DNA of 32,398 nt from Stramenopiles sp. TOSAG23-6 (GCA_900128565.1 LT635958.1:1-32398), one strand, 5' to 3'. Positions 1 to 24,653 are shown, numbered from the stretch's first letter. Numbers and translations: made by a program. Notes: a model not told the origin generated them from the letters alone.

Positions 1-53
1 GTACAAAATTTCGTACGAAAAAAAAATCAAATTTGAAAAAAAATAAAACATAC
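1..53 (-). other. Family intron #1, truncated by window edge
   Basis: Minus strand AT|GTATGTTTTATTTTTTTTCAAATTTG...TTTCGTACGAAATTTTGTAC, same architecture as the other copies; cut just before the expected CTAAC. Confidence 0.8.
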
Positions 54-2919: not shown

Positions 2920-3471
2920 TTTCGAGAGTTAAATAAAATGTTTTATTGTTTTGGTTACAAATTTTAAATTTATGTAGTTATGAAGCATCCTTGCTAGGGT
3001 TAGGGTTTGACGACGAGTCAAAATGTTGACATCAAAATTCAAACGTGAAAAAAAAAAATGCAAATTTTGCAAGTGGAAGGCACTGCAAGCAAACTTATTC
3101 ATAATATATTAATCTTACATTGACAACGTAAGTGACACTGTTTTATACGTATATTAAACGATGATTTATCTTACTACATCACCCCAATTCAAAGCTTACC
3201 TCCACAAGTCGTGCGGAAATGATCAAAAATTGTCACGAAAAGATATGAGCAACGCTTGTATGGCAGCTGGTTCGTTCGCATCGTGATGAGTCGTTTTCTT
3301 CCAGATGGAATAATATTGAAGTCTTTTTCAATTATAAAAAAACATTCAATTACACGTACAACATACAATCAATAAATTTAATTTATTTGGTATCATACTT
3401 TTTTTTTATCAATTTTCGAACGAAAATCGCAACACAAGGTCAAATATAGGGTTATAAATGAAAAACACAAT

Positions 3472-5028: not shown

Positions 5029-5398
5029 TTTAAAGGTGGTATATTAATTCGTCTTTGGAACGGAGAAGTGTAAAATAGAAAACCAGCAGAGTTGGCCAAG
5101 TAGCTAGCTCGAGGCAACACAAAAAGCGTGGCCAAGAAAAACGAAGAAAAACTTTTTTTTTGCGGAGCAGCTGCTATGCAGACAAACCTGCTCAGCTTGT
5201 CTGATGTGTCGTCGTTGTTTTTCGTTTTTGCTATATTTGATGAGGAGAGAGGAGTAGTCAATGCGGAGTCAATCCCAAGAAGACTTGAACAACAATAAAA
5301 ACTCTTCATAATAACGGTGACTGAGGAGTAAATTTCACTTTATTCTTGACAATTTTATTGGATTAGACAAATCTACGTGAGCACTGTATATATACTGG

Positions 5399-8035
5399 AT
5401 GAATAAGTCTTTTGCGATGAACTATATCACAGTTATATATGTTGTTTATGTAAATGTTTTAACAAAGTATGGAGTTTGTTCTGCTGAAGGAACACAGACA
5501 ATGTCATCTTCATTTGGTGCAGCACAACCAACAAAGATAACAAAAGGGATTGGACACAACCAATACAATACCCTCCCACCATCTCATGCACCGAACTTGT
5601 CAGGTTATTATCCGCAAACTCACCAATACACGAATTATCCAAATTATCAGAGTATGCCTCCTCCTACATATTACAACAGTGGAGGGCATCAACCACGAGC
5701 TCACCAGTATCATAAAGTACCTCAATATGGAAATAATGGACAACCCCCGCCGAGTAGTCTCCCAAATCATCATGCATATTCATATCCTCCGTATAATACT
5801 GGTCAAAGTTATATTCCTACTTCTTCTTATGAAAACCAAATATATTCAAATCAACAGCAAATGCACTCCTTTCAGAGCCCTGGTTCACCTCCTATGGGAT
5901 TTATCGACCCAGGAGATGCACCACCAGGTCCACAACGGGAAACGCGTCGTAATGAACGTCTTACAAGATGGTTAGAGCAAAATAGTATTCCTGGACATAA
6001 TCTTGAATTAACAACATTTTCTGGAGCCTTACCAAATACTCAGTACAGAGGTATGAAAACAAAAGTTGATGTTAAAGCTGGAGACGTATTGCTTCAAATA
6101 CCAAAAAGTGTTTTACTTTCTGAAGTTACAGCTAAATCATCTGGTCCAGAGGAAATCCAAATTCTATTTAAAGAACTTAGTAACTCTGGATCTGTGCCGG
6201 GTAAGGTACTATTAGCTTTGCACTTGCTTCGTGAATATTTTGACAGCCAATCTAAATGGGCCCCGTGGCTTCGAACTTTACCATCTCAAGCTGGAAATTT
6301 ATTATATTTTTCTGATGCTGAAATAACTGAAATGCAATGCCCTTCTGATGGATGTCCTGTTCTTGAAAAAGCACGCTCTGTTCGTATAGAATTATACAAA
6401 GTCTGGGAGACAATGAAACCTGTAATGGAGAAAGTGAATTTAATACCTAAAGGTCATTTTTCATACGAAAATTTTCAGTGGGCTTATTTGACAGTTACTA
6501 GTAGAGTATTTTCAATACGTGTTAATGATCGTTATGGTTATGGTTTAGTTGATGGAAATAAAGATAACTTTGGGACGTATTACATTGCTGCACCTTTTGC
6601 TGATATGGTAAATCACCATAATACTGAACCAGCAATACAATTTACATATGGATATAATGACAAAACGAATATGATTGAATTATTTGCTGATCAAGATTAT
6701 ACCGCTGGGCAAGAAGTATATATCTCATATGGTATTCTTACAAATCCTGATTTATTATTAAATTATGGATTTGTCTTGCGTGATAATTTATTTGAAAGTG
6801 TTGCATTGCGCATGGAAATTGATCACCAAACTCCTTTTTTTCATATGAAGAAAGCATTACTCATGTATGTTTTATTTTATTTTTTCAATTTCGAATTTAT
6901 TTTTCGTACGAGATTTTGTACCTAACGAATTTTAGTTTTTTTTTTTTGAAATATTTTTACAAAATACATTCATCACGAGTTGGTTTTCGATGAGTCAAAG
7001 AAAACATCAAATAATTCTACGATACAAAATACACAAAATACAAAAGAAAATGGTAATAAGGCTTCATATGAAGATCCAGTGATAAAAAAACGTCCAAATT
7101 CGATTGATTTTCTTACGACACAGATAAATTTAGTGGGTGATGCTTCTCAGCAGTTTATAACAGCATTACGTATTAAATCGTTTACACCAAAACCTGAAGA
7201 TATTGTAGCATTTAATTCTGTAAACAATACTATTGATGAAATATACCCAAGAAATACATCAAAATTGATGAATAATTCTACATTACCTATCTTCCCCATT
7301 TTGCCTGAGATATTTCCAGAAAACCCTTTGAGTGCAACAAATGAATTTGAAGTATATAATGGATTACTCATTAATCTTGAACAACTTCTTGGAGTATATC
7401 CAACAACATTACAACAAGATGTAGAAATATCACGAAAAGCATCTTCATATTTTACAAGTAATCCAAGATTAGCATCAGCACTTGTGATGCGAATTGAAGT
7501 AAAACGTATATTACATGCTGCATTGTTACAATGTTTCATTGGTATTAAAACTGCATTTGATTTAATATCGAAAGAACAACGACATCGTGCGTCTTCTTCG
7601 GTTGAACATGATATGTGGAAGCACTGGGATGATGGGATGAAAACATGGTTAATTCAGTGGGAAAATTGGCAACAGGATATTGATACTGTTTGGGGTAAAA
7701 ATGAATCAATGAGAACACATATGGATCGTACATTCAATTTTACTGATATTTTGGATAGTGCTGGCGATCAACGGATTGAAAATATGATACATGATGGAAT
7801 TGCGTTGGGTGCAACAGAGTCAAATGATAAGAATTTCAATAAAGTGAAGGAGATTCCTAAAAGTTATGGTAATGAGAATAATCAGGAATCAAAATCACAG
7901 CCTATGACAATTGGTCAATTATTAGCCAAATCTCAAGCTGTCATTGCTGCAGCAAATCAAAAGAAAGGAAGCAAAGTTGATGCTGAAATCGCAACTCAGA
8001 AGATGATGGAAAACATAATTCAAAGTCTGATTTGA
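5399..8035 (+). CDS. SET-domain methyltransferase (SETD3/Rubisco-LSMT-like); exons 5399-6864 and 6970-8035, start codon uncertain
   Basis: YRGM, SKWAPWLRTLP, FQWAYLTVTSRVF, PFADMVNH, EVYISYG, LLLNYGFV. The second ORF is in the same frame and has an LSMT substrate-binding-like YPTTLQQD segment. Confidence 0.85.
6865..6969 (+). other. Family intron #2 (105 nt, GT...CAT; equivalently AT...AC at 6863-6967)
   Basis: AT|GTATGT...TTTCGTACGAGATTTTGTACCTAAC...ATATTTTTACAAAATACAT|T. Contains the in-frame stop; removal gives KALL-I-HHELVF. Confidence 0.75.
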
Positions 8036-8121
8036 AAAGCAAACATAATACAAATAATAAAACATTTGATTTTATTACAATATTTTTAATTTTTAAACAC
8101 ATGCAAGATAGAGCAATATCA

Positions 8122-8994
8122 TTAACAAGGAATAGCAGTGTATACTTTTGATAAATCACGCATTGAACGACGAAGTTTTGTTGTCATCTTTGCCATAGTT
8201 TTTCGATCTAATAATAATGTATCAACCCAGAGTTTTTTTTCCGCCACTGTTCTTAATTTGTTTAATGCTATCCTATCTTCTTTAACAAAAGATCGTTCGA
8301 TTAAAGTCTCAAATGAATTCGCATCAAAAATGTCATCCAAAACATCATCAAGTGTATCAGGTTCATTGTCTGATTCCAATAACAAATCATCCAATAAGTC
8401 ATCCAACATGTCATCTTCACCCACGATATCTTTAGATTCAAGTAATGCATTAGAATCCAAAACACTATTAAGATAATTATCCGCCACTTCAGGTTCTATT
8501 ACCCTTGAATCAAATTTGGAAACTGGAATACGTTCTGTACATTGGGTTGAAGTTGCATGGTTTTTTATACCAGGCAATTGTAAATTCACAGAAGGCTTGC
8601 CCTGGTTGGAACGACGGCGGACACGTTCACGTGCTCGCTGGCGCGCACGCTCTCGGCGGTCATTTCTATTTAGTGAAAGTGTTTGCTTTCTCGGTTTCCG
8701 TGCTCGTAGCTCAGCACTGTGTTTAATTTCTTTATCATAACTTGATAGCTCACGTGGCGATATTGCAAGCATAGGTTTACTAATATCGACTGAACGTTTT
8801 TGACGGTTTCTGTTGCGAGCTCGAAGCTTTGCTAATTCTCGACGGGATACTTTAGTAGCCGGTATAACTTCTATGTGATTATGTTTCTCCAAAATTGAAT
8901 CTTTTACGGAAACATCTTTAACTTGGGAACCACTTTCTGTGGTTTCTTCTTCCTCCGCGGAAAAAAAATCCTCATCGTCAATTATTGAAACCAT
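8122..8994 (-). CDS. Hypothetical protein, 290 aa, with basic then acidic blocks
   Basis: Long ATG-initiated ORF with coding-like composition; no family recognised. Confidence 0.7.
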   Translation of the reverse strand: MVSIIDDEDFFSAEEEETTESGSQVKDVSVKDSILEKHNHIEVIPATKVSRRELAKLRARNRNRQKRSVDISKPMLAISPRELSSYDKEIKHSAELRARKPRKQTLSLNRNDRRERARQRARERVRRRSNQGKPSVNLQLPGIKNHATSTQCTERIPVSKFDSRVIEPEVADNYLNSVLDSNALLESKDIVGEDDMLDDLLDDLLLESDNEPDTLDDVLDDIFDANSFETLIERSFVKEDRIALNKLRTVAEKKLWVDTLLLDRKTMAKMTTKLRRSMRDLSKVYTAIPC

Positions 8995-11888: not shown

Positions 11889-12750
11889 TCAATCCATACG
11901 ACCTTTTAATTCGCGTGTTATAACTTGTGTAGGAGTAATAATATGAACATATGCACCCCAACCACTGAGAGCGTCACGGTCAACAGCTGCGAGTAAAGAT
12001 TGTGATAAAGTTTCGAATAGTTCATCCTCATTCATATCCTTTCTAAAAAGACTTTCACAGGTACCATATAGATTATCTGCACATGTACCTGCAACAACAA
12101 AATCGTCAGTAACAACGGGTGCGCCAATTAAATCCATAGCACAAAGATAAGGTACATTGTTTTCATCGAGACCGGCAACCACTGGCTCAATGAACCAAGG
12201 ACCAAATCTCTTCTCATATAGCATATTAGAAAGCAAATGTGAGAACGTTTTTGGTTTCATTGAACGATCTTCACGCAATTCATACCTATACTGAAATAAT
12301 ATAACAAAATGCAATTATGTATGAGTCTTTATATTGTAGGGAGAGTTTATGAAGTGTACACTGGAGTTGGGGAAAGAAAACACGAAAGTAAATCCTATTG
12401 ACAACATGTTATACAAAGAAACTTATAGGCTCGGAATACTTTTTAAAGCCAACACTGGATATGAAACATAATAACACACAATTAATATACTTAAATCAAA
12501 TATATAGGGAAAAGCTTATACATACAACTTACATTTTCATACGAAAGTCAAGTTTTTCACTCATTGTCTGTACATCAGTAGCGAGACCACTGAGACCCAC
12601 TACAAGTTTGTCGTTCATTTCAAAAACACGATTGAAATTACAGCTCACTGTCTGAGCACTAGCTCCCAAGCGTCTATCAGTTGCAATACCAACACAATTC
12701 TTGCCAGCCATGGCAATCACGGCACTGCCATTGTATTCGAGAATAGACAT
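11889..12750 (-). CDS. PSMB3: Proteasome subunit beta type-3; exons 12750-12533 and 12285-11889 (204 aa)
   Basis: MSILEYNGSAVIAMAGKNCVGIA...GLSGLATDVQT; YEKRFGPWFIEPVVAGL; DRDALSGWG; C-terminal LKGRMD. Confidence 0.97.
12286..12532 (-). other. Canonical GT-AG intron (247 nt), no family motif
   Basis: AT|GTAAGT...TATAG|G restores FRMKMYELRE. Confidence 0.93.
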
Positions 12751-13036: not shown

Positions 13037-14228
13037 ATGTCGCACGTCAATGTTGATTTCTATGAATATTATTCTAAATATGATGGTCACCCTGTGTCAG
13101 GTCTCAAAACAATTCATGATTCTCTTAGGGCAGATGGTAAAAATATAATATTTTTAGCTGGGGATTCTTCTTTGGATAACAAGTTTTGGTTTTCGAACAC
13201 CGGTCCTGCAATAAATGGATACGAAAAAGTTTTGCATCCGGCGAAGATGAAATTAGATGTTTGTCGGGCCTTCAATAGAGAGTGTGTCAAACTTTCAGAC
13301 AGAAATGAAGACTGTCAGTACGCTTGTTTGAATACAGCTATTGAGGCAAGCACTTTGAACAATCGTTCGTGTGGCAAGTTACTAGACCAAGATAAGTTTA
13401 TACGAGAGTCTATCACAAACAATGATATACTCGTTGTATCCGTAGGGTTTTTTGAATTTCGTTTCAGAAATATTTCAATAAAGCATCACCTTATAAAGTT
13501 TATATTGACTCATTCGTTAGTACTGTTGACATAAACACATTTATCACAGTGGCAATGACGTTGCCTTACAGCCATTATTGTGTACTGTAATAAATATGCT
13601 AGGATTAGTCTGGTGCAGTGGACCTCAATGTTTAATGGAGCGAATGTCGTGTGCTTGTCCAATAAATACAGGCTCCATATGTGACTTTGGTTGTTTATGT
13701 TGCGGTCTTCCTAATTGTTTAATTAATGGTCTCTTAGGCTTTCCACTTGGTACTGGTTATATGGTCGATTTATTTGCCAACCGTGTTGAAAATTATGTAC
13801 GAAAACTTATTGGTGACAAAAGGCCAAAAACAATTGTTGTATGTATGATATACTTTCTAGACCAAGAATCGACAGGGTCCTGGTCAGATTGTGCTTTAAC
13901 TTGTCTTTTATACAACAAAATTCCACGTCGATTACAACTCTGTATTCAAAAGGCGTTTGAATTAGGTACAATGCGTATTAAAATAAAAGGTACAAAAGTA
14001 GTACCTTTTCCATTATTTGATGTATTAGACGGAAGTGATACTACAGATTATGTTCAACGTGTTGAGCCGAGTCCTAAAGGCGGAGAAAAAATCGCTTCAG
14101 CTATTATGGAAAAACTTTTTACAACCGATGGTGAGCTTAGTAATAGTAATAGTGTGGAAAATGATACTAATTTATCGAGTGAAATTGGTGAAAACATAGT
14201 TGCTAAAAGCAATAACATGGCGAGATAA
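13037..14228 (+). CDS. SGNH/GDSL-like hypothetical protein; exons 13037-13446 and 13550-14228
   Basis: FLAGDSSLDNK (block I-like); the spliced junction restores VVSVGGND (block III-like); DYVQRVEPS in the block V position. Confidence 0.75.
13447..13549 (+). other. Canonical GT-AG intron (103 nt) with weak GTTTTT donor
   Basis: GG|GTTTTTTG...ATCACAG|T GGC AAT GAC joins the two ORFs in frame. Confidence 0.85.
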
Positions 14229-16464: not shown

Positions 16465-17328
16465 CTACTTCTTTTTTTTCTTTTTTTTTTGCCATGGTAA
16501 CATCTGTGCTACTCCATATGGATTCTCGTAGTAACCTACAGGCTTTTGACCATGCCTATACAATGCTGGGTTTATACCTGGAACGGGGTCAACAGTTGTC
16601 GTTTCCCACGTATTGTGAAAAATATTTGAAATTTAAAATTCGTTAGGTACAAACTTTCATACCAAAAAACAAAAATTAAATTTGAAAATGATGAAAATGA
16701 AAACGAACATTCATCCGTCTCAATTGGTTGAGCATTTGACCGACCTCCTATTACCCAAGGAATTGAATGCACTGGAATATCTTCTCCATTTGGTTCATAA
16801 AACGGATGATGCATTGACATATCCTGCCCAGTATCCCACGGATTCCGATTTTTAAGTGAATTATGTTGTAACATCAAATCAACTCTATTTGATCCATCGT
16901 AAAGAGCAGCTCCACCAACCATTTTCTGAGGAAATCTTTGATAAAACGGCTTGAATGATTCGACAGCTTTTGCAACTTGTTCTGGAGTTTCATCTAATCG
17001 TTGCACTGTCATGAACTTGTTTTTTGAATCTCCGTCATTTTTTGCATCTCCCAAGGGAAGAGGTATTCCTGCGGGGACTTCTGGCCATTCTAAACCCTCC
17101 ATTGAACCCCGTTTTACGCGGGTATCACTAATTCCCTTGTACCTGATATGTGTAAAAGCGTATGATTGAATATTCCAACAATAAATGAATGGATAAAAAA
17201 ATAAAAGAAGTCGTTTTCAGAAAAGTAAACTGGTAAACATACATCCAGCTTCTTGTATCAAATGGAGTTTCGCCAAGTATAAATAAAGTGTTGTTCAGAG
17301 CGAATAGCAAGAAAATATATAAGTTCAT
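16465..17328 (-). CDS. Three-exon hypothetical protein with signal-peptide-like N-terminus and poly-Lys C-terminus; exons 17328-17243, 17142-16709, 16607-16465
   Basis: Joined reading MNLYIFLLFAL...SWM|YKGISDTR...MEGLEWP...IETDE|WETTTVDPVPGINPALY...WQKKKKKKK*. Confidence 0.65.
16608..16708 (-). other. Family intron #3 (101 nt; GT...CGT, or AT...AC at 16710-16610)
   Basis: AT|GTTCGTTTTC...TTTGTACCTAAC...ATATTTTTCACAATACGT|GG; end is 35 nt from the branch A. An in-frame CAG about 30 nt further on is an alternative acceptor. Confidence 0.65.
17143..17242 (-). other. Canonical GT-AG intron (100 nt), no family motif
   Basis: AT|GTATGT...ATATCAG|G; phase 2 on both sides. Confidence 0.8.
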
Positions 17329-17608
17329 TCTAGTGTTTGATTCATTCCATTCAATTCAAAAAATCATTCTCAACAATGACATTGTCAATAATTATGTTTT
17401 TTTTTCCCCTCTCGCTCTCTCTCTCTCCCCCTCCGATTAATTTAGTTGTCTTCCTCACAAACCTGCTTCGCGCCAAAAAATGTCTCCAAAGCGAAAGGTA
17501 ACAATATTGGCGCAATGGCCAATTCGCGCCATCCTCCTCCTGTGTGCGTCATTTATCTATACTTAAAGCTTTGTAAGATTCAAAACAAATCAAGCTACAT
17601 TTTATACA

Positions 17609-17881
17609 ATGGTACTCACAATGAATACTTCTTTAAAAGCAAATACGTTGAATGCTCCAGACTGTAAACAAAACTGTTTTCCAACAAAATTTTCAGCCAC
17701 ACAGACACATAGAAAAACGCAGGATGAAAACTCTAACCCGAACGTAAATGCCACATTCAATAGAAAAGAAAAACCAGTTCACGCATCTATCATTCGATTG
17801 ATTAGGGAAGAGCGACGTTTAGTTCGTGATGCAGGATATTCTCAATCGCAAAGGAAACGTGTCCTTCGGGTTCTGCAGTAG
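17609..17881 (+). CDS. Small hypothetical protein (90 aa)
   Basis: ATG-initiated ORF in an otherwise empty interval; helical, basic C-terminus. Confidence 0.4.
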   Translation: MVLTMNTSLKANTLNAPDCKQNCFPTKFSATQTHRKTQDENSNPNVNATFNRKEKPVHASIIRLIREERRLVRDAGYSQSQRKRVLRVLQ

Positions 17882-18148
17882 TGATTATGAGAAAGAAAAA
17901 AAAAAGAACTACTGCTCCATGAGTACTTTTTTTGTAGCGCAACAATTATAGTACTAGTATATCAAAAGTCGAACCATACTTTATTAGTGTACGGAATCAA
18001 AAAATAAATATTTATATAAATATGATTTTGTTATAATTCTTTATAATAGAGCAAAAAATCTTTATGCTGCTACCTCAACACACAAAAAAAANGACGNCAA
18101 AAANGTTTTNAANATTCAAAACAACTCATTTCAAGTATAGCTTTTACA

Positions 18149-21100
18149 CTAGATGAGTTTTCCACCTGCAAACATTGGTGACACTAATTCCAGCAAATCG
18201 CCACAAGGTAGACCACGATTGAGTCTACTTTTAGCTATTTTACACCAAATACGCCCTTTTGTTGGGTTAGCTTCTTCACATTTCGTTTTTACAGTAAGTG
18301 CCAATGCTTCGGCAGCTGCTTTTGTATCCTCACTTACAGCATCTTCTACTTGTTCTCTTTCGAACTGATAATATTGGGCCCAAGAGTCACCACAATTTTT
18401 ATCCAACAAAACTGCACGATTTAACCACTTTCGCGCTTTTCTAACTTTAGCGGGTTTGTATTTCCAGAATAATCGAGCAACAGCCAAAACAACTTCGACA
18501 TTCGACGAACCGCAACTCCGAAGAGCGTCTGCACTTCTTGATTTCTGTTGTTGCTTTGGTGTCATATCGATTTCAGTCGCCCAGAGTATACCAGATTTTG
18601 GACACTTTTGCAAAGCACGTGACATTAGCTTCTCTGCTAATTTTTTTTGCACGTTACTGACACTAGTATTCATAGATTGTATTGGTGTTTTAGTTATATT
18701 TGATCCATTTGGTTTGCCTTGTAATTCTAAGCGAATAGCAGCTAACCAAATAGCAGGCGATTGTGGTAACTTTAGCCTCGCAACTTCTAAAAGAGATCGA
18801 GTTTTCGTTAATGAACTAACACTTTTCTCTAATGAAGTGGCTAATAACCATAATTCAACAGATTTTGGAAATTTTGCTAAACCTTTGTGATATGTCTCTT
18901 TAGCACGACGAATCCATTTTAGATTTTTTTCATTTGACATTTGTTTCTGTCCACAAGAAAGTGAATGTTTTTCTTCATACAATTGACCCAACATCATCCA
19001 CAACTTCGCCTCTTCATCCGGAAATTTACCAAGTGCTGCTAAAAGTAACTTTTCTTCTGCATCGAGACAGGATTGTGACCATTCCAAAAGAGCTGACTTC
19101 ATCCATACTCTTGGAGTTGAATTTATTCTATTTCTTGCTTGTGAAAGTAAAGATCTTGCAGCTTCTACAGATCCTGAACTCTGTTTTAATTTTGCTGATG
19201 CGAGTAGGAGAGCCTCAGAATCGATGTGTTTCATTGCATTTTCTAATAAAATTTCTGCTGCTTCAATATCATCAAATTCTTCCCATGTATGTTTTGCTGC
19301 CATTAACCAGAATGTTTCGCATTTAGGTACACTTGATAATGCTTTCTGATATAAATTTTTCAAAGTGTATTTTGTACCATATCTTTTTTCAAATTCAACT
19401 AAATTAAACCATAGTTTCTCTTTTGAATGGTACACAGAGACGACCTTATCGTAAATAGCACGAGCGACTGCAATATTACCAGCTTTCTCTGCAGCAGTCG
19501 CTTCATCACACCATGTACGATATCTAGTGCCATCAATTATTCCAATTTCAAGACATTCTTTAGCAATTGCTGTAGCCGTATATGGAGCACCAGCTCTTTC
19601 AGCTGCAGATGCTTCTTTAAGCCATTGCTCTCTGCTTAAACTAACATCATTTGCTTCCAGTGATTTTCTAGCAAGTGAAATTATTCTTTCACATATACTT
19701 TTGATTGATGCTTCAGAGTTTTCATCGTCATTTTTTGAGTTCGCTTCCTCTAATCGTGATGCTGCAATCCAAATACGAACATCGGTAGGTACTGATAAAC
19801 GTGCTTTATTTAATACCCTCTTTGCATTATCATATGATTCTAAACGAGCTAATGCTAACCATAAATCCACAGCAGAAGGAACACATTCAACAGCACGACC
19901 AAGCATAACACGAGCATCTTCAGGCTCTTCAAGAGCCACAGCAGCCTTCCAAAGACGCACAGAATGAGGTAAAAATTCCAGAGACTTTCTCAAAACTCTT
20001 CGCTTTGCTGATGGCTTTGATTCTAATTCAGATGCACGCTCCCAAATTCGTACAGATAAAGGAAGTGAACGTACCGCATTCGCTAAAATAATTTTAGCAT
20101 TTGCATTATTCTCCATCGCAGCAGATTCTAACCACACATCTTCAGACTCTGGACACGAGACACATCCGCTTCGTATGACATTCCGTGCAGCAACCATTTT
20201 ACCTGCTGCTAATTCAAGTCTAGCATATGCAATCCATCCAGCAGGTTCTTTAGGATTAGTCTTTGTAACAGACTGTAATAAAAGTCTACCTTTTTTAATA
20301 TCAGCCATTTCACTCATTGAATTCACTTTTTGTGAATTTAAATCAGTGAGATAACCTTTTGGATCGACGACTGTCTGACCAGAGACAGAGTCAGACATCT
20401 TCTGTAATTTTCTACTCAATAATTGTTCACGAGCCTGTGCTAATTGACCACCCACCTGTAACACAGAATTACCACCACTTTGCGTCATTGGTGTTTTAAA
20501 ACCTCCAATAGGAGTCTGAAAACCTCCATATTTTTGCTGCCTTGGATCAATAAATGTTTGTTTGTTATCTGATGGTATACCCATAGTTAGAATATTGTCG
20601 GGGACAGGATATGAGACAGGTGTTATCTTTGCTTGCTTCCTCTTTAAAGAACGATCGCCAATTTCTGGAATGGCTTCCCATTCTTCGTTGCTAATCTGTT
20701 TTAAATCTTTTTTGAGATCAGCAAATTGATCTTCAATTCGTGGACGCTCTATACGGCGTTTCTTTTGTATTTCGTTTTCACGTGCTTCATTGCGAACTTT
20801 ACGTCGTTTCTCCATATGTTGGTCAACAGCCTTGTATATAGCATCTGCTTCTTTATCTTCAGTTTCGTATGGAGAATCACTAAATAAACTATGACTAAAA
20901 CCCGACTCTTTATCAAAATTTGACTCTGAAAAATCTTTCTCTCGTTCTCCATTTTCTAATTTATCCTTTCCAAAGTTACCTACTGTACCAGAACCACGAC
21001 CAGCACCTCCACGATACCCATCAGGAGCTTGACCAAAATCTGTTCGGCCTACTGCAGCAGATCCACCAACACCAAGACCCCCAAGTCCTTTCTCCCTTTC

Positions 21101-21361
21101 TTTCTTCGCAAAGGCCATCTTTGCTTGCTTTTCTGCAATCAAATCTGAGATTTCCGCACATTCGCGTTTAAACTTTTCAGTACCAAAAGAAGCGTTTAAA
21201 AATTCAGTACCCTCGTGTACATTATATCCTGCAGGACCTATATCAGCGCTTGTAGTAAACCCAAGAGCACCACGTCCAAGACCAGGAACATATCTTTTTG
21301 GCTTCAACGCTTCCTTCGCAAATGTTTTGGGGTTTCGACTAAATGCGGCACTCCCATTCAT
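18149..21361 (-). CDS. PRPF6: Pre-mRNA processing factor 6 (U5/tri-snRNP HAT-repeat protein), intronless
   Basis: YVPGLGRGALGFTTSADIGPA, FADLKKDL, WEAIPEIGD, DSVSGQTVVDPKGYLTDL, DIKKGRLLLQSVTKTNP, HAT repeats. ATG at 21361. Confidence 0.97.
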   Translation of the reverse strand: MNGSAAFSRNPKTFAKEALKPKRYVPGLGRGALGFTTSADIGPAGYNVHEGTEFLNASFGTEKFKRECAEISDLIAEKQAKMAFAKKEREKGLGGLGVGGSAAVGRTDFGQAPDGYRGGAGRGSGTVGNFGKDKLENGEREKDFSESNFDKESGFSHSLFSDSPYETEDKEADAIYKAVDQHMEKRRKVRNEARENEIQKKRRIERPRIEDQFADLKKDLKQISNEEWEAIPEIGDRSLKRKQAKITPVSYPVPDNILTMGIPSDNKQTFIDPRQQKYGGFQTPIGGFKTPMTQSGGNSVLQVGGQLAQAREQLLSRKLQKMSDSVSGQTVVDPKGYLTDLNSQKVNSMSEMADIKKGRLLLQSVTKTNPKEPAGWIAYARLELAAGKMVAARNVIRSGCVSCPESEDVWLESAAMENNANAKIILANAVRSLPLSVRIWERASELESKPSAKRRVLRKSLEFLPHSVRLWKAAVALEEPEDARVMLGRAVECVPSAVDLWLALARLESYDNAKRVLNKARLSVPTDVRIWIAASRLEEANSKNDDENSEASIKSICERIISLARKSLEANDVSLSREQWLKEASAAERAGAPYTATAIAKECLEIGIIDGTRYRTWCDEATAAEKAGNIAVARAIYDKVVSVYHSKEKLWFNLVEFEKRYGTKYTLKNLYQKALSSVPKCETFWLMAAKHTWEEFDDIEAAEILLENAMKHIDSEALLLASAKLKQSSGSVEAARSLLSQARNRINSTPRVWMKSALLEWSQSCLDAEEKLLLAALGKFPDEEAKLWMMLGQLYEEKHSLSCGQKQMSNEKNLKWIRRAKETYHKGLAKFPKSVELWLLATSLEKSVSSLTKTRSLLEVARLKLPQSPAIWLAAIRLELQGKPNGSNITKTPIQSMNTSVSNVQKKLAEKLMSRALQKCPKSGILWATEIDMTPKQQQKSRSADALRSCGSSNVEVVLAVARLFWKYKPAKVRKARKWLNRAVLLDKNCGDSWAQYYQFEREQVEDAVSEDTKAAAEALALTVKTKCEEANPTKGRIWCKIAKSRLNRGLPCGDLLELVSPMFAGGKLI

Positions 21362-21589
21362 ACTGCCTATATTTGTATAAAGTATAGAAAAAAAAAGACT
21401 CAAAACCTGGCTCAAAAGAAGACCTCGTTTATATACGGCTTTAGGTAGATGTATAGAGTGCGTCTCTCTCTGTTCGCGTTGCGTGTCACTTTTGAACGTC
21501 AATTTCGAATTTGTTATTAGCCCTAACCCTAGCTACTAGAAAGTGATGTGTAAATACTAAAAAATCTTAATATCAAAAATCTTTATTAT

Positions 21590-24500
21590 TCAACAAGGAG
21601 AACATTTCCTTAATTTTAAATCTACAATACAAACTCTCCTAAATCCAGCATGACAAAGAATTTGAAGCAGTAACATCGCATCCTCTACGCATGTTGAAAC
21701 GACACATATCAATGAACTTTGTAATTCTAAAATACTCATATGGTTAGATTTAGAATTTGAAGACGTTTTACTTTGCATTGTTTTAGGGTTAGGGTTAGTC
21801 GTAATACAGTATTCAGAATTTACAAATTGACTAATTACTCCAAGGCAAGCATTAGAACATCTTTGTTGGTCATCTACATTTAAATTTCTAGCATTTGCTG
21901 ATAACCAAGGTAAACATTCCTTTTCTACTTCTTGTATTGATGAATGAGTGATGAAAAATATTTTAAATTTTAAATCGATTAGGTATGGAATTACTTTCTT
22001 TGTAAAATATTTAAGTAAAAAATTAATTTTGAAACGTACATACAAACTACGAATACATATATGAATAGTTCGAGTTGAAACTGGTGTAATATAACTACAA
22101 AATTCAGTGTGCATGGATTATGAAAAATATTTCAAAAATTAAAATCGTTAGGTACGAAATTTCGTACGAAACAAAAATAAATTCGAAATTGAAATTGAAA
22201 TTGAAATTGAAATTGAAAACGTACATTCTATGTAACGAATTGAAATCTGTAATAAATTCATTACTTGAGTTTTTTTTCATAAATGATTTCCTACAAAATT
22301 TAGTACAAAATTCATCATACTCTTTGAAATTATTAGTCTCATCATTTTGTATATCATTTTGTATATCATTTTGTATATTTTGAGGAATTTTGAAGAATTC
22401 GCTACAATTTATCAAAATACATGATTCTTTCCATAATAAGTCTTCATGTAAAACATTCATAGGAATAAATGGAACATGTACAGTGAAAAAATATTTTAAA
22501 AAATAATTTTTGTTAGGTACAAAATTTCGTACGAAAATAAAAACAAAATTTGAAAAAAAATGAAAACGTACATTCAATGAAGGGAAGCAAATTTCATTTA
22601 CCCATGACTTCCAAATACGAAAATTTTGTATATCGAAAATAGTTTCATTGAAAATTTCATTACTTTTACTGTGTCGTTCTTGTAAATATGATACAATTTT
22701 GGTAACACGCATTGAAAATAAAGCACGTGGAGTATTAGATAACATTCTTAATGATAGTGTTAAACTTCTTTGCACATTTAGACGAGTTACAAAATCATTG
22801 AATAGATCATCACTTTGATGTGAAATTGATACAGAATGTGTTTGAAAACTTGACATTTCTATATTTGTATGATCCTTTTTTTTTGAAACATATTGATCAT
22901 CTACAATCTCAATATTTTCTACTTCATCTATATCATCGTTAAATCTTACAGTATTTATGACTTTATCAGGCAAATCATTACAACTATTACTAGTAGTAAG
23001 ATTGTCTGTACAGTTTTCATAGTCAACACATCCTTGATTAAGTTTTGAAATAAAAGTCATAACACCACTGAAATCAAGTTTCATGATTTGTTCTTTCTTT
23101 TCAATAAGAAGGGAGACACCAAGAAAAAGTACATGTATTGTGAAAAAAACACGAAATTATGAAAAAAAATTGTTAGGTACGAAATTTGGTACAAAACATA
23201 CGTAAATTAATAAATTCATGATGAAAAAAGTACATGATCAGGTTCGGTGGCAAGTAACATATCCCAAACTAAAACTAATTCTCGAACCCAAAACACATCT
23301 GAGACTGTCTTGTAGAAAAATATATATATTTTTTACATATTAGGTACGCGACGAAATTTGATATTAGGGTTAGGGTTTTAAAAAAAAATTAACCACTACT
23401 CATTTGAACAACAATACATTTGAAATTGATGATTTCAAAAACGTACATAAAGTCACAACCCAAGAAATTGCATATAATTCTGGTACAATTTCTAATTTCT
23501 GAAGGTAATTTGATAATTCTGGATCCCAGAAATGTAATATAGTAGCAAATAAGTCTAATCGTTTTATAAGAAAATTTGCTCCGTGTTCTCCTGGAAGACA
23601 ATAATCTGGTATATATTGTTCTAATAGTGATGAGAGGCATATAGAAGCAAAATGAATCCTTATGTTTTTGTGATGTATATTTTGTTTCAAATCATCGAAA
23701 GCAAAGTTTTCTTTTTTCTTCATCAAAACTTTTTCAGGATTACTTTTTAATTCTTCATTGCCTTCTACAGTATAATCATCGCTCATAAATACATGTAAAA
23801 ATAATGCTGCAATCGAATCAAATCCTTGATGATATTCTAAATTTGGATATCTTTTTGACCATTTTAATAATACATTGTGTATAGCATCAACAGATTCATT
23901 TGAAGTTAAACCATAAATTAATCCAGATTGTGCAAATCTATTTCTTTCAGAATCTACTTGAAGTAGTCCTAGGTCTGAACAATGAGAAACTTCATTTTTT
24001 TCAGTTATTAATTCATCATTGATTTGGTTGTTTCTATTTGTAGCATCACTAATATTATCATTCAAACGAAGCAGTGCAACCCAGATTTTGTAGCGATATT
24101 GTTGAGAAACTCGAAATACTTCCAAACGTCCAAACTCTTGTCGTTTCTCTACTCTAGGCTGAACTCTCAATAATTTAAGAAATTCGTCAATATACTTGAG
24201 GTCAATTTCCGAATACGCAACACCTGTGACGGCGTCATGTTTCTTTGACAAAACTATTCCTTTCGATACACAAAATCTCATGAGAACTTCATCAACGAGT
24301 ACATCAATATAATCACGATGATTCAATTTATTCTGGCGAGAATTGAGAATTTCTAAAGGATAAGGGGAACCTTGTATTCCACCGGATTCAACAGAACCAA
24401 CTTTTGAACCCATTGTGATACGACGAAATGCAACTTGTGAACTTGACTGGGAAGCAACAGCATCTCTAGACGGTGTTGAGGATTGAATTACAACTCGTGA

Positions 24501-24653
24501 TAGTAGTGGTTGGCGCACACGGGTCAACTCAAGTAGGTTCTGTTGACGAAACCTTTGAAGACGTTTAAGTTTTGCAATATAAAACAAGGCACCAACGAGT
24601 ACAATCACAATTGACGCAATAAGCACCAAGTGGATGTTCCAGATCTCAGGCAT
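21590..24653 (-). CDS. N-terminal TM + TBC (Rab-GAP) + rhodanese-like protein, TBCK-like without kinase; 6 exons: 24653-23447, 23304-23234, 23132-22572, 22475-22225, 22112-22040, 21943-21590
   Basis: VDSER (R finger), YHQGFDSIA (Q finger), DPELSNYL...PELYAISWVVTLFSDVF...VWDMLL...LFLGVSLL after splicing; C-terminal AGFRRVCIVD is rhodanese-like. Confidence 0.8.
21944..22039 (-). other. Family intron #4 (96 nt, GT...CAT)
   Basis: AT|GTACGTTTC...ATACCTAATCG...ATATTTTTCATCACTCAT|; 35 nt from branch A. The first three downstream AGs are out of frame. Confidence 0.65.
22113..22224 (-). other. Family intron #5 (112 nt, GT...CAT), with (TTTCAA)n microsatellite
   Basis: AT|GTACGT...TTTCGTACGAAATTTCGTACCTAAC...ATATTTTTCATAATCCAT|G; 35 nt from branch A. 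An in-frame TAG at 22095 is an alternative acceptor. Confidence 0.65.
22476..22571 (-). other. Family intron #6 (96 nt, GT...CAT)
   Basis: AT|GTACGT...TTTCGTACGAAATTTTGTACCTAAC...TTTTTTCACTGTACAT|GTT; the next two AGs are out of frame. Confidence 0.75.
23133..23233 (-). other. Family intron #7 (101 nt, GT...CAT)
   Basis: CAT|GTACTTTTTT...TTTCGTACCTAAC...TTTTCACAATACAT|GTACTTTTTC; removal restores the TBC C-terminal helix. Confidence 0.82.
23305..23446 (-). other. Family intron #8 (142 nt, GT...CAG), with telomere-like insert
   Basis: AT|GTACGT...CGTACCTAAT...ATATTTTTCTACAAGACAG|; restores WVVTLFSDVF; 35 nt from branch A. Confidence 0.85.

What the first reader, a model, noticed from the sequence alone, without database searches (positions are those of the whole stretch)
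16608..23446. 3' splice site appears set by distance from the branch box (about 35 nt)
Distances I counted from the second A of CCTAA to the inferred last intron base: 35 (#3), 35 (#4), 35 (#5), 37 (#6), 40 (#7), 35 (#8) and 44 (#2, which has a 12-T run). In #8 the first AG (AAG, 4 nt earlier) is out of frame and the CAG at +35 gives the TBC consensus WxxTLFS. That also fixes the donor at GT rather than AT for this copy. Inference: a ruler or structure mechanism rather than AG scanning. Shared ancestry of the copies could also explain the constant spacing.
Basis: partly seen in the sequence, partly recalled or inferred. Interest (0 to 1): 0.8.

Follow-up and report, generated by a model that had tools for sequence, protein, structure and literature searches.

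The report
Mobile intron family with inherited spacing
The near-constant 35-base gap between branch box and intron end is what copies of one mobile intron inherit from their ancestor, not evidence of a molecular ruler, though most copies do seem to end without the usual AG.

Summary
The seven introns, a truncated eighth copy at the window edge and one copy in a marine metagenome contig all belong to one ~100-nt element. It is homologous from 5' end to 3' end, spacer included, so constant spacing is inherited.

Where the spacer has gained bases, the junction moves with the element's end. That end lies 10-11 nt past a U-run (sd 0.43), against 35-44 nt from the branch box (sd 3.16). Splicing at a strict +35 breaks the frame in 3 of 8 copies.

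First-AG use also fails. It is in frame in only 3 of 8 copies, against 8 of 8 for the element end. In the TBC domain it costs 28 bits (copy F) or 64 bits (copy G) against a homologue profile.

So AG scanning is rejected, a branch-anchored ruler is unsupported, and seven of eight copies end CAT or CGT, not AG. I obtained no RNA evidence. The genome appears to be a MAST-3-type marine stramenopile, and my searches found no description of such introns there.

The parts
1..53 (-). The 5' part AT|GTATGTTTT... runs to ...CGTACGAAATTTTGTAC and is cut by the window edge.
   Evidence: nhmmer partial hit 48..1, E 0.023; sequence read; GTATGT donor listed at 53
6865..6969 (+). Family intron A (#2) in a SETD3-like SET / Rubisco-LSMT-substrate-binding gene. 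105 nt, GT...AT (or AT...AC). Branch A at 6925, 44 nt to the end, with a 12-T run in the spacer.
16608..16708 (-). Family intron B (#3) in a secreted protein of no known family. 101 nt, GTTCGT...CGT (or AT...AC). Branch A at 16643, 35 nt to the end. An in-frame canonical AG lies 30 nt further on.
21944..22039 (-). Family intron C (#4) in the TBC gene. 96 nt, GT...AT. Branch A at 21979, 35 nt to the end. An earlier CAT at +28 is out of frame.
22113..22224 (-). Family intron D (#5) in the TBC gene. 112 nt, GT...AT. Branch A at 22148, 35 nt to the end. It holds a 30-base hexamer repeat, (GAAATT)5 on the + strand, at 22185-22214 upstream of the branch box. An in-frame canonical AG lies 18 nt downstream.
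22476..22571 (-). Family intron E (#6) in the TBC gene. 96 nt, GT...AT (or AT...AC). Branch A at 22513, 37 nt to the end. It has a 6-nt terminal inverted repeat ATGTAC/GTACAT.
23133..23233 (-). Family intron F (#7) inside the TBC domain. 101 nt. Branch A at 23173, 40 nt to the end. A 12-nt direct repeat spans both junctions, and none of its 13 possible registers is GT/GC-AG.
   Evidence: 213.0 against 184.7 bits for the first AG; registers read
23305..23446 (-). Family intron G (#8) inside the TBC domain. 142 nt, and the only copy ending in AG (GT...CAG). Branch A at 23340, 35 nt to the end. An AAG at +31 is bypassed. It carries TTAGGGTTAGGG at 23364-23375.
21590..24653 (-). TBC (Rab-GAP) gene holding five family introns. 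Removing all five at the element ends gives one 838-codon open frame.
12291..12532 (-). Comparison: ordinary intron of the proteasome beta-3 gene, GTAAGT...TTTCAG, with no TACCTAAC box.
17143..17242 (-). Comparison: ordinary first intron of the gene that also holds B, GTATGT...ATCAG.
   Evidence: frame read
13447..13549 (+). Comparison: ordinary intron, GTTTTT...CACAG. Its removal restores the SGNH-type block VVSVGGNDVAL.

Best explanation
The seven introns are copies of one mobile, introner-like intron of about 100 nt. In order, the element carries:
- a GTAYGT donor preceded by AT;
- a small palindrome, GTACGAAATTTCGTAC, that forms a 6-bp hairpin;
- the invariant box TACCTAA(C), which looks like a U2-type branch site;
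- an A/T-rich spacer;
- a run of 5-6 U;
- a 10-11-nt tail, C-A-N-N-A-N-N-C-A-T.

Each copy is removed exactly at the element's own ends. This restores the host reading frame.

The ~35-nt distance from branch box to 3' junction is a property of the ancestral element, inherited by its copies. Where a copy has gained bases in the spacer, the junction stays with the terminal U-run and tail. The distance then grows to 37, 40 or 44 nt.

The 3' junction is not an AG in 7 of 8 copies (CAT six times, CGT once). I infer that the spliceosome of this organism accepts C-A-U at a position fixed locally. Two candidate cues are the U-run about 10 nt upstream, and pairing of the intron's last six bases with the 5' junction (ATGTAY/RTACAT).

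Shown here:
- homology of the copies along their whole length;
- frame restoration in all copies;
- homology-backed junctions for F and G.

Inferred, not shown:
- that the removal happens at the RNA level, by the spliceosome;
- that TACCTAAC is the branch site actually used;
- that the register is GT...AT rather than AT...AC (my odds about 70:30);
- what positions the 3' cut.
For: One family:
- nhmmer with the family profile finds 7 full copies and 1 truncated copy in the window, and 1 copy in L004 (E 2e-9 to 5e-17).
- The alignments are colinear from the first base to the last.
- Whole-element identity is 0.49-0.82. Spacer identity averages 0.60, against 0.37 expected from composition.

The junction follows the element end:
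- U-run to 3' end is 10-11 nt (sd 0.43). Branch A to 3' end is 35-44 nt (sd 3.16).
- The extra bases in A, E, F and L004 lie upstream of the U-run.

Frames:
- The element-end column is in frame 8 of 8 times, with both flanks open.
- The first downstream AG is in frame 3 of 8 times. A strict +35 is in frame 5 of 8 times.

Homology:
- A profile of 36 TBC homologues scores 213.0 bits for GT...CAG at G plus the element end at F.
- It scores 184.7 bits with the first AG at F and 148.5 bits with the first AG at G.
- DH|VLFLGVSLLIEKKEQIM aligns to the profile without a gap.

Register: F is present in 31 of 36 homologues at TL[F] and V in 0 of 36. GTAYGT also matches the donors of ordinary introns in the window (GTAAGT, GTATGT).

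Terminal inverted repeat: 4.6 of 6 core positions pair in the junction register, against 0.75-3.4 in 12 shifted registers.

Ordinary introns in the same window end in AG, 3 of 3, and lack the box.

Sense orientation relative to the host gene holds in 9 of 9 copies. AT precedes the donor in 9 of 9, across all three codon phases.
Against: - There is no RNA evidence at all. Frames and homology say what must be removed, not how or where to the base.
- B and D have in-frame canonical AGs with the same donor, at +65 and +53, and nothing here excludes them.
- The junctions of C, D and E rest on frame alone. Pfam finds nothing in those exons.
- Only 8 complete copies were available, all related. A ruler and an inherited architecture make the same prediction for the four copies at +35. 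The four informative copies (E, F, L004, A) span only 2-9 nt.
- A loose distance window of 33-45 nt from the branch cannot be excluded as a co-requirement.
- C and D carry an earlier CAT at +28 that is not used, so the terminal triplet alone does not define the site.
- The terminal helix is short and A/U-rich. Whole-intron folds are mostly not better than shuffles (z from 0.5 to -3.2).
Confidence: 0.6

Rival explanations
1. Branch-anchored ruler. After the first step, the spliceosome cuts a fixed number of bases, about 35, downstream of the branch adenosine, whatever the sequence there.
For: Four of 7 window copies, and 4 of 8 with L004, sit at exactly 35. No AG is available at the junction in 7 of 8 copies. 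C and D ignore an earlier CAT at +28, so position matters. Constrained branch-to-3' distances are known in intron-poor eukaryotes and in U12-type introns (PMC2483917: abstract and section 18 read).
Against: The distances are 35-44, not constant. A cut at +35 is out of frame in E, F and L004, and F's junction at +40 is fixed by homology. The distance from the U-run is about 7 times less variable than the distance from the branch. The four copies at 35 share homologous spacers of the same length, so they count as one observation.
Confidence: 0.1
2. Same family and same junction positions in the mRNA, but the register is AT...AC: the intron starts two bases earlier and ends two bases earlier. All copies would then share A at +1 and C at -1, the pair known to be compatible in AT-AC introns (recalled). 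Distances would be 33-42.
For: AT before the GT in 9 of 9 copies. C at the would-be last position in 8 of 8, and AC in 6 of 8. The mRNA is identical to that of the GT...AT register in 6 of 8 copies, so frames cannot tell them apart. Under this register B ends in a regular AC, instead of the odd GT...GT.
Against: In G it replaces the F of WxxTLF with V, which is found in 0 of 36 homologues, and costs 7 bits. ATGTAYGT resembles neither the U12-type nor the U2-type AT-AC donor (recalled consensus), whereas GTAYGT is a good U1/U6 match and matches the window's ordinary donors. C and D would end in TC and CC.
Confidence: 0.25
3. The family introns are ordinary GT-AG introns that run on to the next suitable AG in what I call exon. 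The frame agreement at the element end is then a coincidence or a reader's choice.
For: With the family donor, in-frame AGs exist downstream in B (+30), C (+24), D (+18), F (+36) and L004 (+51).
Against: A and E have no in-frame AG with the family donor within 120 nt. In F the AG junction deletes 12 conserved residues and loses 28 bits. The first AG is in frame in only 3 of 8 copies, which is the chance rate, against 8 of 8 for the element end. Sequence right after the element end stops being homologous among copies.
Confidence: 0.07
4. The elements are not spliced from RNA. They could be excised from DNA (IES-like, with one copy of a short flanking repeat retained), or they sit in dead genes or assembly artefacts.
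For: Short direct repeats (AT; 12 nt in F) and terminal inverted repeats flank the element, as in excised DNA elements. The window carries scattered N.
Against: The most conserved blocks are exactly the spliceosomal signals in the right order: GTAYGT, CTAAC box, U-run. An independent metagenome contig carries a copy with the same features in another gene. Host frames are long and open, up to 838 codons after removal. All 9 copies are in sense orientation.
Confidence: 0.03

Closest known systems
Introners / introner-like elements (Micromonas, Aureococcus, fungi and many aquatic protists; PMC9860276 and PMC12130899, passages read; Huff et al. 2016 recalled)
   Same: Many near-identical introns sit at unrelated positions in unrelated genes. 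Short flanking direct repeats and terminal inverted repeats are present. Removing the element plus one repeat copy restores the frame. The host is a marine protist.
   Different: Published families were found from annotated, mostly GT-AG introns, and families with unfamiliar splice sites were checked or discarded (PMC12130899, methods passage). Here 7 of 8 copies lack AG. The element carries its own strong branch box. The apparent flanking repeat is only 2 nt (AT).
Introner elements and non-canonical introns of Amoebophrya (PMC7789003, passages read)
   Same: Non-GT/AG boundaries. Direct repeats overlap the exon/intron borders, so the exact cut is ambiguous. Inverted repeats join the intron's two ends. 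The host is a marine protist.
   Different: Amoebophrya elements have 8-20-nt inverted repeats and no conserved terminal dinucleotides. This family has only 3-6 paired positions, a conserved GTAYGT donor, a CTAAC box and a U-run. It looks like a near-canonical U2-type intron with one changed base at the 3' end.
Non-canonical introns of Fritillaria (PMC13326754, abstract and one results section read)
   Same: A 3' AT is a common intron end there (44% and 34% of introns in two species). A YAY triplet forms the last three bases, and CAT here is YAY. U-rich tracts are kept.
   Different: Those are tunicates with duplicated U2AF subunits and mostly AG/AC or AG/AT termini. Here the donor is GT and the organism appears to be a stramenopile. 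I could not examine U2AF.
Constrained branch-to-3' distance in intron-poor eukaryotes and U12-type introns (PMC2483917, abstract and section 18 read)
   Same: A strong branch consensus and a narrow branch-to-3'-end distance in an intron-poor, compact genome.
   Different: In those cases the pattern holds across unrelated introns of a genome and the end is AG. Here it holds within one repeat family. The three ordinary introns in the window lack the box.
Structure-assisted 3' splice site choice in yeast (PMC3239191, abstract read)
   Same: [quoted passage not shown]
   Different: I found no conserved structure in this family's spacer. The only conserved helix lies just 5' of the branch box.

Membership tests
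Introner-like mobile intron family | Several near-identical introns at non-homologous positions in unrelated genes | tested here: met
   Seven full copies and 1 truncated copy in 4 genes of the window, plus 1 copy in metagenome contig L004.
Introner-like mobile intron family | Removal of exactly the element restores the host reading frame (it behaves as an intron) | tested here: met
   In frame with both flanks open in 8 of 8 copies. F and G are backed by the TBC profile. Removal at the RNA level was not tested.
Introner-like mobile intron family | Transposon signatures: target-site duplication and terminal inverted repeats | tested here: inconclusive
   AT...AT direct repeat in 6 of 8 copies, and 12 nt in F. 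Terminal complementarity is 4.6 of 6 against at most 3.4 in shifted registers. This is too short to assign a superfamily.
Introner-like mobile intron family | Hundreds or more copies genome-wide; presence/absence differences between relatives | not testable with these tools
   No whole genome is held for this window. The one metagenome scan returned 8 loci, of which 1 is a true copy.
U12-type (minor spliceosome) introns | Donor /RTATCCTT (consensus recalled) | tested here: not met
   The donors read GTACGT, GTATGT or GTTCGT, or ATGTAYGT in the other register.
U12-type (minor spliceosome) introns | Branch box TCCTTAAC about 10-15 nt from the 3' end (recalled) | tested here: not met
   The box is TACCTAAC and lies 35-44 nt from the end, or 33-42 nt in the other register. 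Rfam finds no snRNA in the window.
Branch-anchored 3' site ruler | Junction at a fixed distance from the branch adenosine when the spacer length changes | tested here: not met
   Distances are 35, 35, 35, 35, 37, 40, 40 and 44. A cut at +35 is out of frame in 3 of 8 copies. F at +40 is fixed by homology.
First-AG scanning from the branch point (canonical U2-type 3' site choice) | Junction at the first AG beyond the branch point | tested here: not met
   In frame in 3 of 8 copies. Costs 28 bits in F and 64 bits in G.
Canonical GT-AG U2-type intron | GT at the 5' end, a branch site, a pyrimidine run and YAG at the 3' end | tested here: not met
   GT, the CTAAC box and the U-run are present in 8 of 8 copies. 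YAG is at the frame-restoring end in only 1 of 8 (G).
Amoebophrya-type introner elements | 8-20-nt inverted repeats joining the intron ends, plus 3-5-nt direct repeats over the borders (PMC7789003) | tested here: inconclusive
   Direct repeats are 1-4 nt, and 12 nt in F. Only 3-6 positions pair. This is shorter than the published definition.

The most novel reading that the evidence does not exclude
A marine stramenopile carries a proliferating intron family that its major spliceosome removes at a non-AG 3' site (C-A-U). The family has an otherwise textbook donor, branch box and U-run. The site would be chosen by position, about 10 nt past the U-run and/or opposite the 5' junction in a short terminal helix, rather than by the AG dinucleotide. 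That would be a natural system in which recognition of the 3' splice site is uncoupled from AG, outside the tunicates, euglenozoans and syndinians where such introns are known.
Probability: 0.4. Interest if true: 0.7.

Novelty: new variant of a known kind. Interest (0 to 1): 0.45.

Why it matters
The specific claim, a molecular ruler from the branch point, would have been a new way of choosing 3' splice sites. The evidence points to inheritance instead, which is ordinary.

What remains is still useful. This is a compact, intron-poor protist genome. One mobile intron family appears to be removed precisely although 7 of 8 copies lack the AG that the second step of splicing normally requires. Three neighbouring ordinary introns all use AG.

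If RNA data confirm this, the family gives dozens to thousands of natural variants for asking what positions the 3' cut, including spacer indels and CAT, CGT and CAG ends. It would add stramenopiles to the short list of lineages with non-AG spliceosomal introns.

It also matters for annotation. Gene callers that insist on GT-AG will mis-model every host gene. The public model of the neighbouring PRP6 gene is already badly over-split.

Tried and rejected
RNA evidence:
- The look-up of sequencing runs listed five runs holding 5-10% of the sampled words. Four are on record as marine RNA runs and one as RNA that is probably DNA.
- Nothing was laid, so those runs say nothing about splicing or habitat.

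Protein searches for spliced forms:
- TBC exon 1 (near lengths, with my E cut-off of 1e-10, which was too strict for distant relatives) gave no hits.
- The exon between F and E also gave no hits.
- The all-representatives search gave only distant TBC proteins, at most 54 bits. These were enough for a profile of the TBC domain but not of the C-terminal exons.

More copies:
- The metagenome scan with a 21-nt degenerate pattern returned 8 loci. Only L004 is a family copy.
- L001 is a chance match inside a continuous coding frame. L002, L003 and L005-L008 are unrelated.
- The same pattern in viral contigs gave 0 matches.

Other checks:
- Whole genome: none is held, so I could not make the genome-wide histogram or inspect U2AF1, PRP8, SLU7 and PRP18.
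- Rfam: no hits in the window.
- Structure: RNAalifold finds only a 6-bp hairpin next to the branch box, with one compensatory pair. Single-sequence folds have z from 0.5 to -3.2, and nothing is conserved in the spacer.
- Pfam on the exons flanking B, C, D and E, and PDB with the exon after A, gave nothing usable for placing those junctions.
- Earlier notes of this scan held nothing on this genome or this element.

Identifications considered and dropped:
- Larvacean tunicate (Fritillaria): gene density, few introns and stramenopile-like best hits argue against it.
- Amoebophrya: its reported G+C is far higher.
- U12-type introns: see the membership test.

Supplementary files of the papers were not seen. 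They may hold intron statistics for MAST assemblies or introner lists that bear on novelty.
Full report
**What is there**

The region holds six short A/T-rich introns on the minus strand. One is at 16608-16708, in a gene for a secreted protein of no known family. Five lie within 1.5 kb of a TBC (Rab-GAP) gene at 21944-23446. A seventh lies on the plus strand at 6865-6969, in a SETD3-like gene.

The distances are 44, 35, 35, 35, 37, 40 and 35 nt, exactly as reported. The 12-T run in #2 and the AAG four bases before the CAG in #8 are also present.

**They are copies of one element**

A profile built from the introns finds seven full-length copies in the window (E 2e-9 to 5e-17). It also finds a copy truncated by the window's left edge (positions 53 to 1, minus strand) and one full copy in a marine metagenome contig, L004. 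The other seven loci from the metagenome scan are chance matches to my 21-nt pattern. L001, for example, matches inside a continuous coding frame.

The copies align colinearly from first base to last. In order, they share:
- AT|GTAYGTTTTC at the 5' junction;
- a palindrome, GTACGAAATTTCGTAC;
- the invariant TACCTAA;
- an A/T-rich spacer;
- a run of 5-6 T;
- a tail, C-A-N-N-A-N-N-C-A-T.

Whole-element identity is 0.49-0.82. In the spacer alone it averages 0.60, against 0.37 expected from base composition. F, in the TBC gene, is closest to the L004 copy in a different gene (0.88 in the spacer). So the five TBC copies are not local tandem duplicates.

**Are the inferred 3' ends right?**

I have no RNA evidence. 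Two protein searches for spliced forms found nothing. The evidence is therefore indirect, but it is fairly strong for the family as a whole.

- Frames. Taking one fixed pair of alignment columns as intron start and end keeps both flanking frames open in 8 of 8 copies. Their lengths are 96-142 nt and fall in all three classes modulo 3. My inference is that chance would give about (1/3)^8.
- Whole gene. Removing all five TBC copies at those columns yields one 838-codon frame.
- Homology. A profile of 36 distant TBC homologues scores 213.0 bits for the model that uses GT...CAG in G and the element end in F. The sequence DH|VLFLGVSLLIEKKEQIM runs gaplessly along the profile. Using the first downstream AG in F deletes 12 residues and scores 184.7 bits. 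Using the first AG (AAG) in G shifts the frame and scores 148.5 bits.
- F has no canonical option. A 12-nt direct repeat spans both of its junctions, and none of the 13 possible registers is GT/GC-AG (read).

The weak cases are B and D. With the same donor, each has an in-frame canonical AG further on, at +65 and +53. C has one 24 nt downstream. Pfam and PDB give nothing to place the junctions of A, B, C, D or E.

**Register**

AT precedes the donor and most copies end in AT. Because of this, GT...AT and AT...AC give the same mRNA in six of eight copies.

For GT:
- GTAYGT is a good donor and matches the ordinary introns here (GTAAGT, GTATGT).
- In G, the GT register gives the F of WxxTLF (F 31, Y 4, L 1 of 36 homologues). 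AT...AC gives V (0 of 36) and loses 7 bits.

For AT...AC:
- The would-be last base is C in 8 of 8 copies.
- B would then end regularly, in AC.

I put the odds near 70:30 for GT. Under GT, the 3' ends are CAT in six copies, CGT in B and CAG in G.

**Ruler, scanning or descent?**

First-AG scanning fails. It is in frame in 3 of 8 copies, which is the chance rate, and it is contradicted by homology in F and G. G's bypass of an AAG four bases before a CAG needs no ruler. Closely spaced AGs are known to compete, with CAG favoured over AAG (recalled).

A branch-anchored ruler fails as well.
- The distance is 35-44 nt (sd 3.16). The distance from the end of the U-run to the junction is 10-11 nt (sd 0.43).
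- The extra bases in A, E, F and L004 lie upstream of the U-run.
- A cut at +35 would be out of frame in E, F and L004.
- The four copies at exactly 35 have homologous spacers of equal length, so they are one inherited state and not four measurements.

The site still cannot be defined by its triplet alone. C and D carry an earlier CAT at +28 that would break the frame. Something positional must contribute, and there are two local candidates.
- The U-run about 10 nt upstream.
- A terminal inverted repeat, ATGTAY/RTACAT. It pairs the last two exon bases and the first four intron bases with the last six intron bases. On average 4.6 of 6 positions pair in that register, against 0.75-3.4 in twelve shifted registers.

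I cannot tell whether this repeat is a transposon relic, a working RNA helix or both. The only structure conserved in the alignment is a 6-bp hairpin just 5' of the branch box, with one compensatory pair. The spacer shows none.

**Context**

The window is compact, with about 16 genes in 32 kb, and has 36% G+C. It holds three ordinary introns that end in AG and lack the TACCTAAC box.

The PRP6 gene next to the TBC gene is an uninterrupted 1073-codon frame. Its best database match is a record whose source name begins GSMAST32. That record is identical in blocks but has seven internal gaps, so it is an over-split model of this same gene. The next hits are stramenopiles at 42-46% identity. The organism is therefore most likely a MAST-3-type marine stramenopile.

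**What is in print**

The main text of a paper on single-cell assemblies of such lineages mentions introns only in methods (PMC5778133; 'intron' twice, 'splice' 0 times). A MAST-3 metagenomics paper does not mention them (PMC12614181). No paper in the library holds both 'introners' and 'MAST'. I could not see supplements.

**Comparison with known systems**

The family works like an introner. It is a mobile element whose removal, together with one copy of a short flanking repeat, restores the frame (PMC9860276, PMC12130899; passages read).
- It resembles Amoebophrya introner elements in its non-canonical, register-ambiguous borders with direct and inverted repeats (PMC7789003). It differs in having much shorter repeats and conserved U2-type signals.
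- Its CAT end recalls the 3' AT and the YAY rule of Fritillaria introns (PMC13326754), in an unrelated lineage.
- Narrow branch-to-3' distances are known in intron-poor eukaryotes and U12-type introns (PMC2483917). There they hold across unrelated introns, whereas here they hold within one repeat family.
- It is not a U12-type intron. The donor and the branch distance both fail that test.

**Verdict**

- The 'ruler from the branch box' part is not supported.

The most interesting residue is the non-AG 3' end of a proliferating intron family in a stramenopile. It is supported by frames and homology but has not been verified by RNA.

Noticed in passing
window 18149-21370 (-) and protein P0037: The PRP6 gene is one uninterrupted 1073-codon frame. 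The public protein model of the same gene (869 aa) is identical in blocks but has seven internal gaps. The automatic annotation appears to have cut spurious introns out of a continuous exon.
   Followed up: partly
window 21783-21794, 23364-23375, 3000-3008, about 21519-21531; L004 (reverse strand) about 893-950: Short telomere-like motifs (TTAGGGTTAGGG, AAACCCTAA-like) lie between genes, in the TBC last exon and inside intron G. They recur next to the family copy in L004. They could be a regulatory box or relics, and remain unexplained.
   Followed up: no
window 22185-22214: A 30-base hexamer repeat, (GAAATT)5 on the + strand, sits inside intron D upstream of the branch box. It shows that the element tolerates length change 5' of the box.
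   Followed up: no
window 23122-23133 and 23231-23242 (approximate): A 12-nt direct repeat spans both junctions of intron F. The exon after the intron starts with nearly the same bases as the intron itself. This may reflect an insertion-site preference for sequence resembling the element's own 5' end.
   Followed up: partly
window 22344-22367 (within 22341-22381): A 12-nt tandem repeat in a TBC exon encodes a repeated QNDI peptide. This place also tripped the read-laying filter.
   Followed up: no
window 16074, 18092-18113: Six isolated N lie in an intergenic A-rich stretch. This is a low-quality consensus rather than a scaffold gap.
   Followed up: no
window 21944-23446: Five of the eight window copies sit in the 3' half of one gene, yet they belong to different subtypes. 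F is closest to the L004 copy. This suggests repeated independent insertion into this gene rather than local duplication.
   Followed up: partly
window 8035-8122 and 5309-5399: Neighbouring open reading frames are separated by only about 90 bases. That is extreme compaction for a free-living eukaryote.
   Followed up: no
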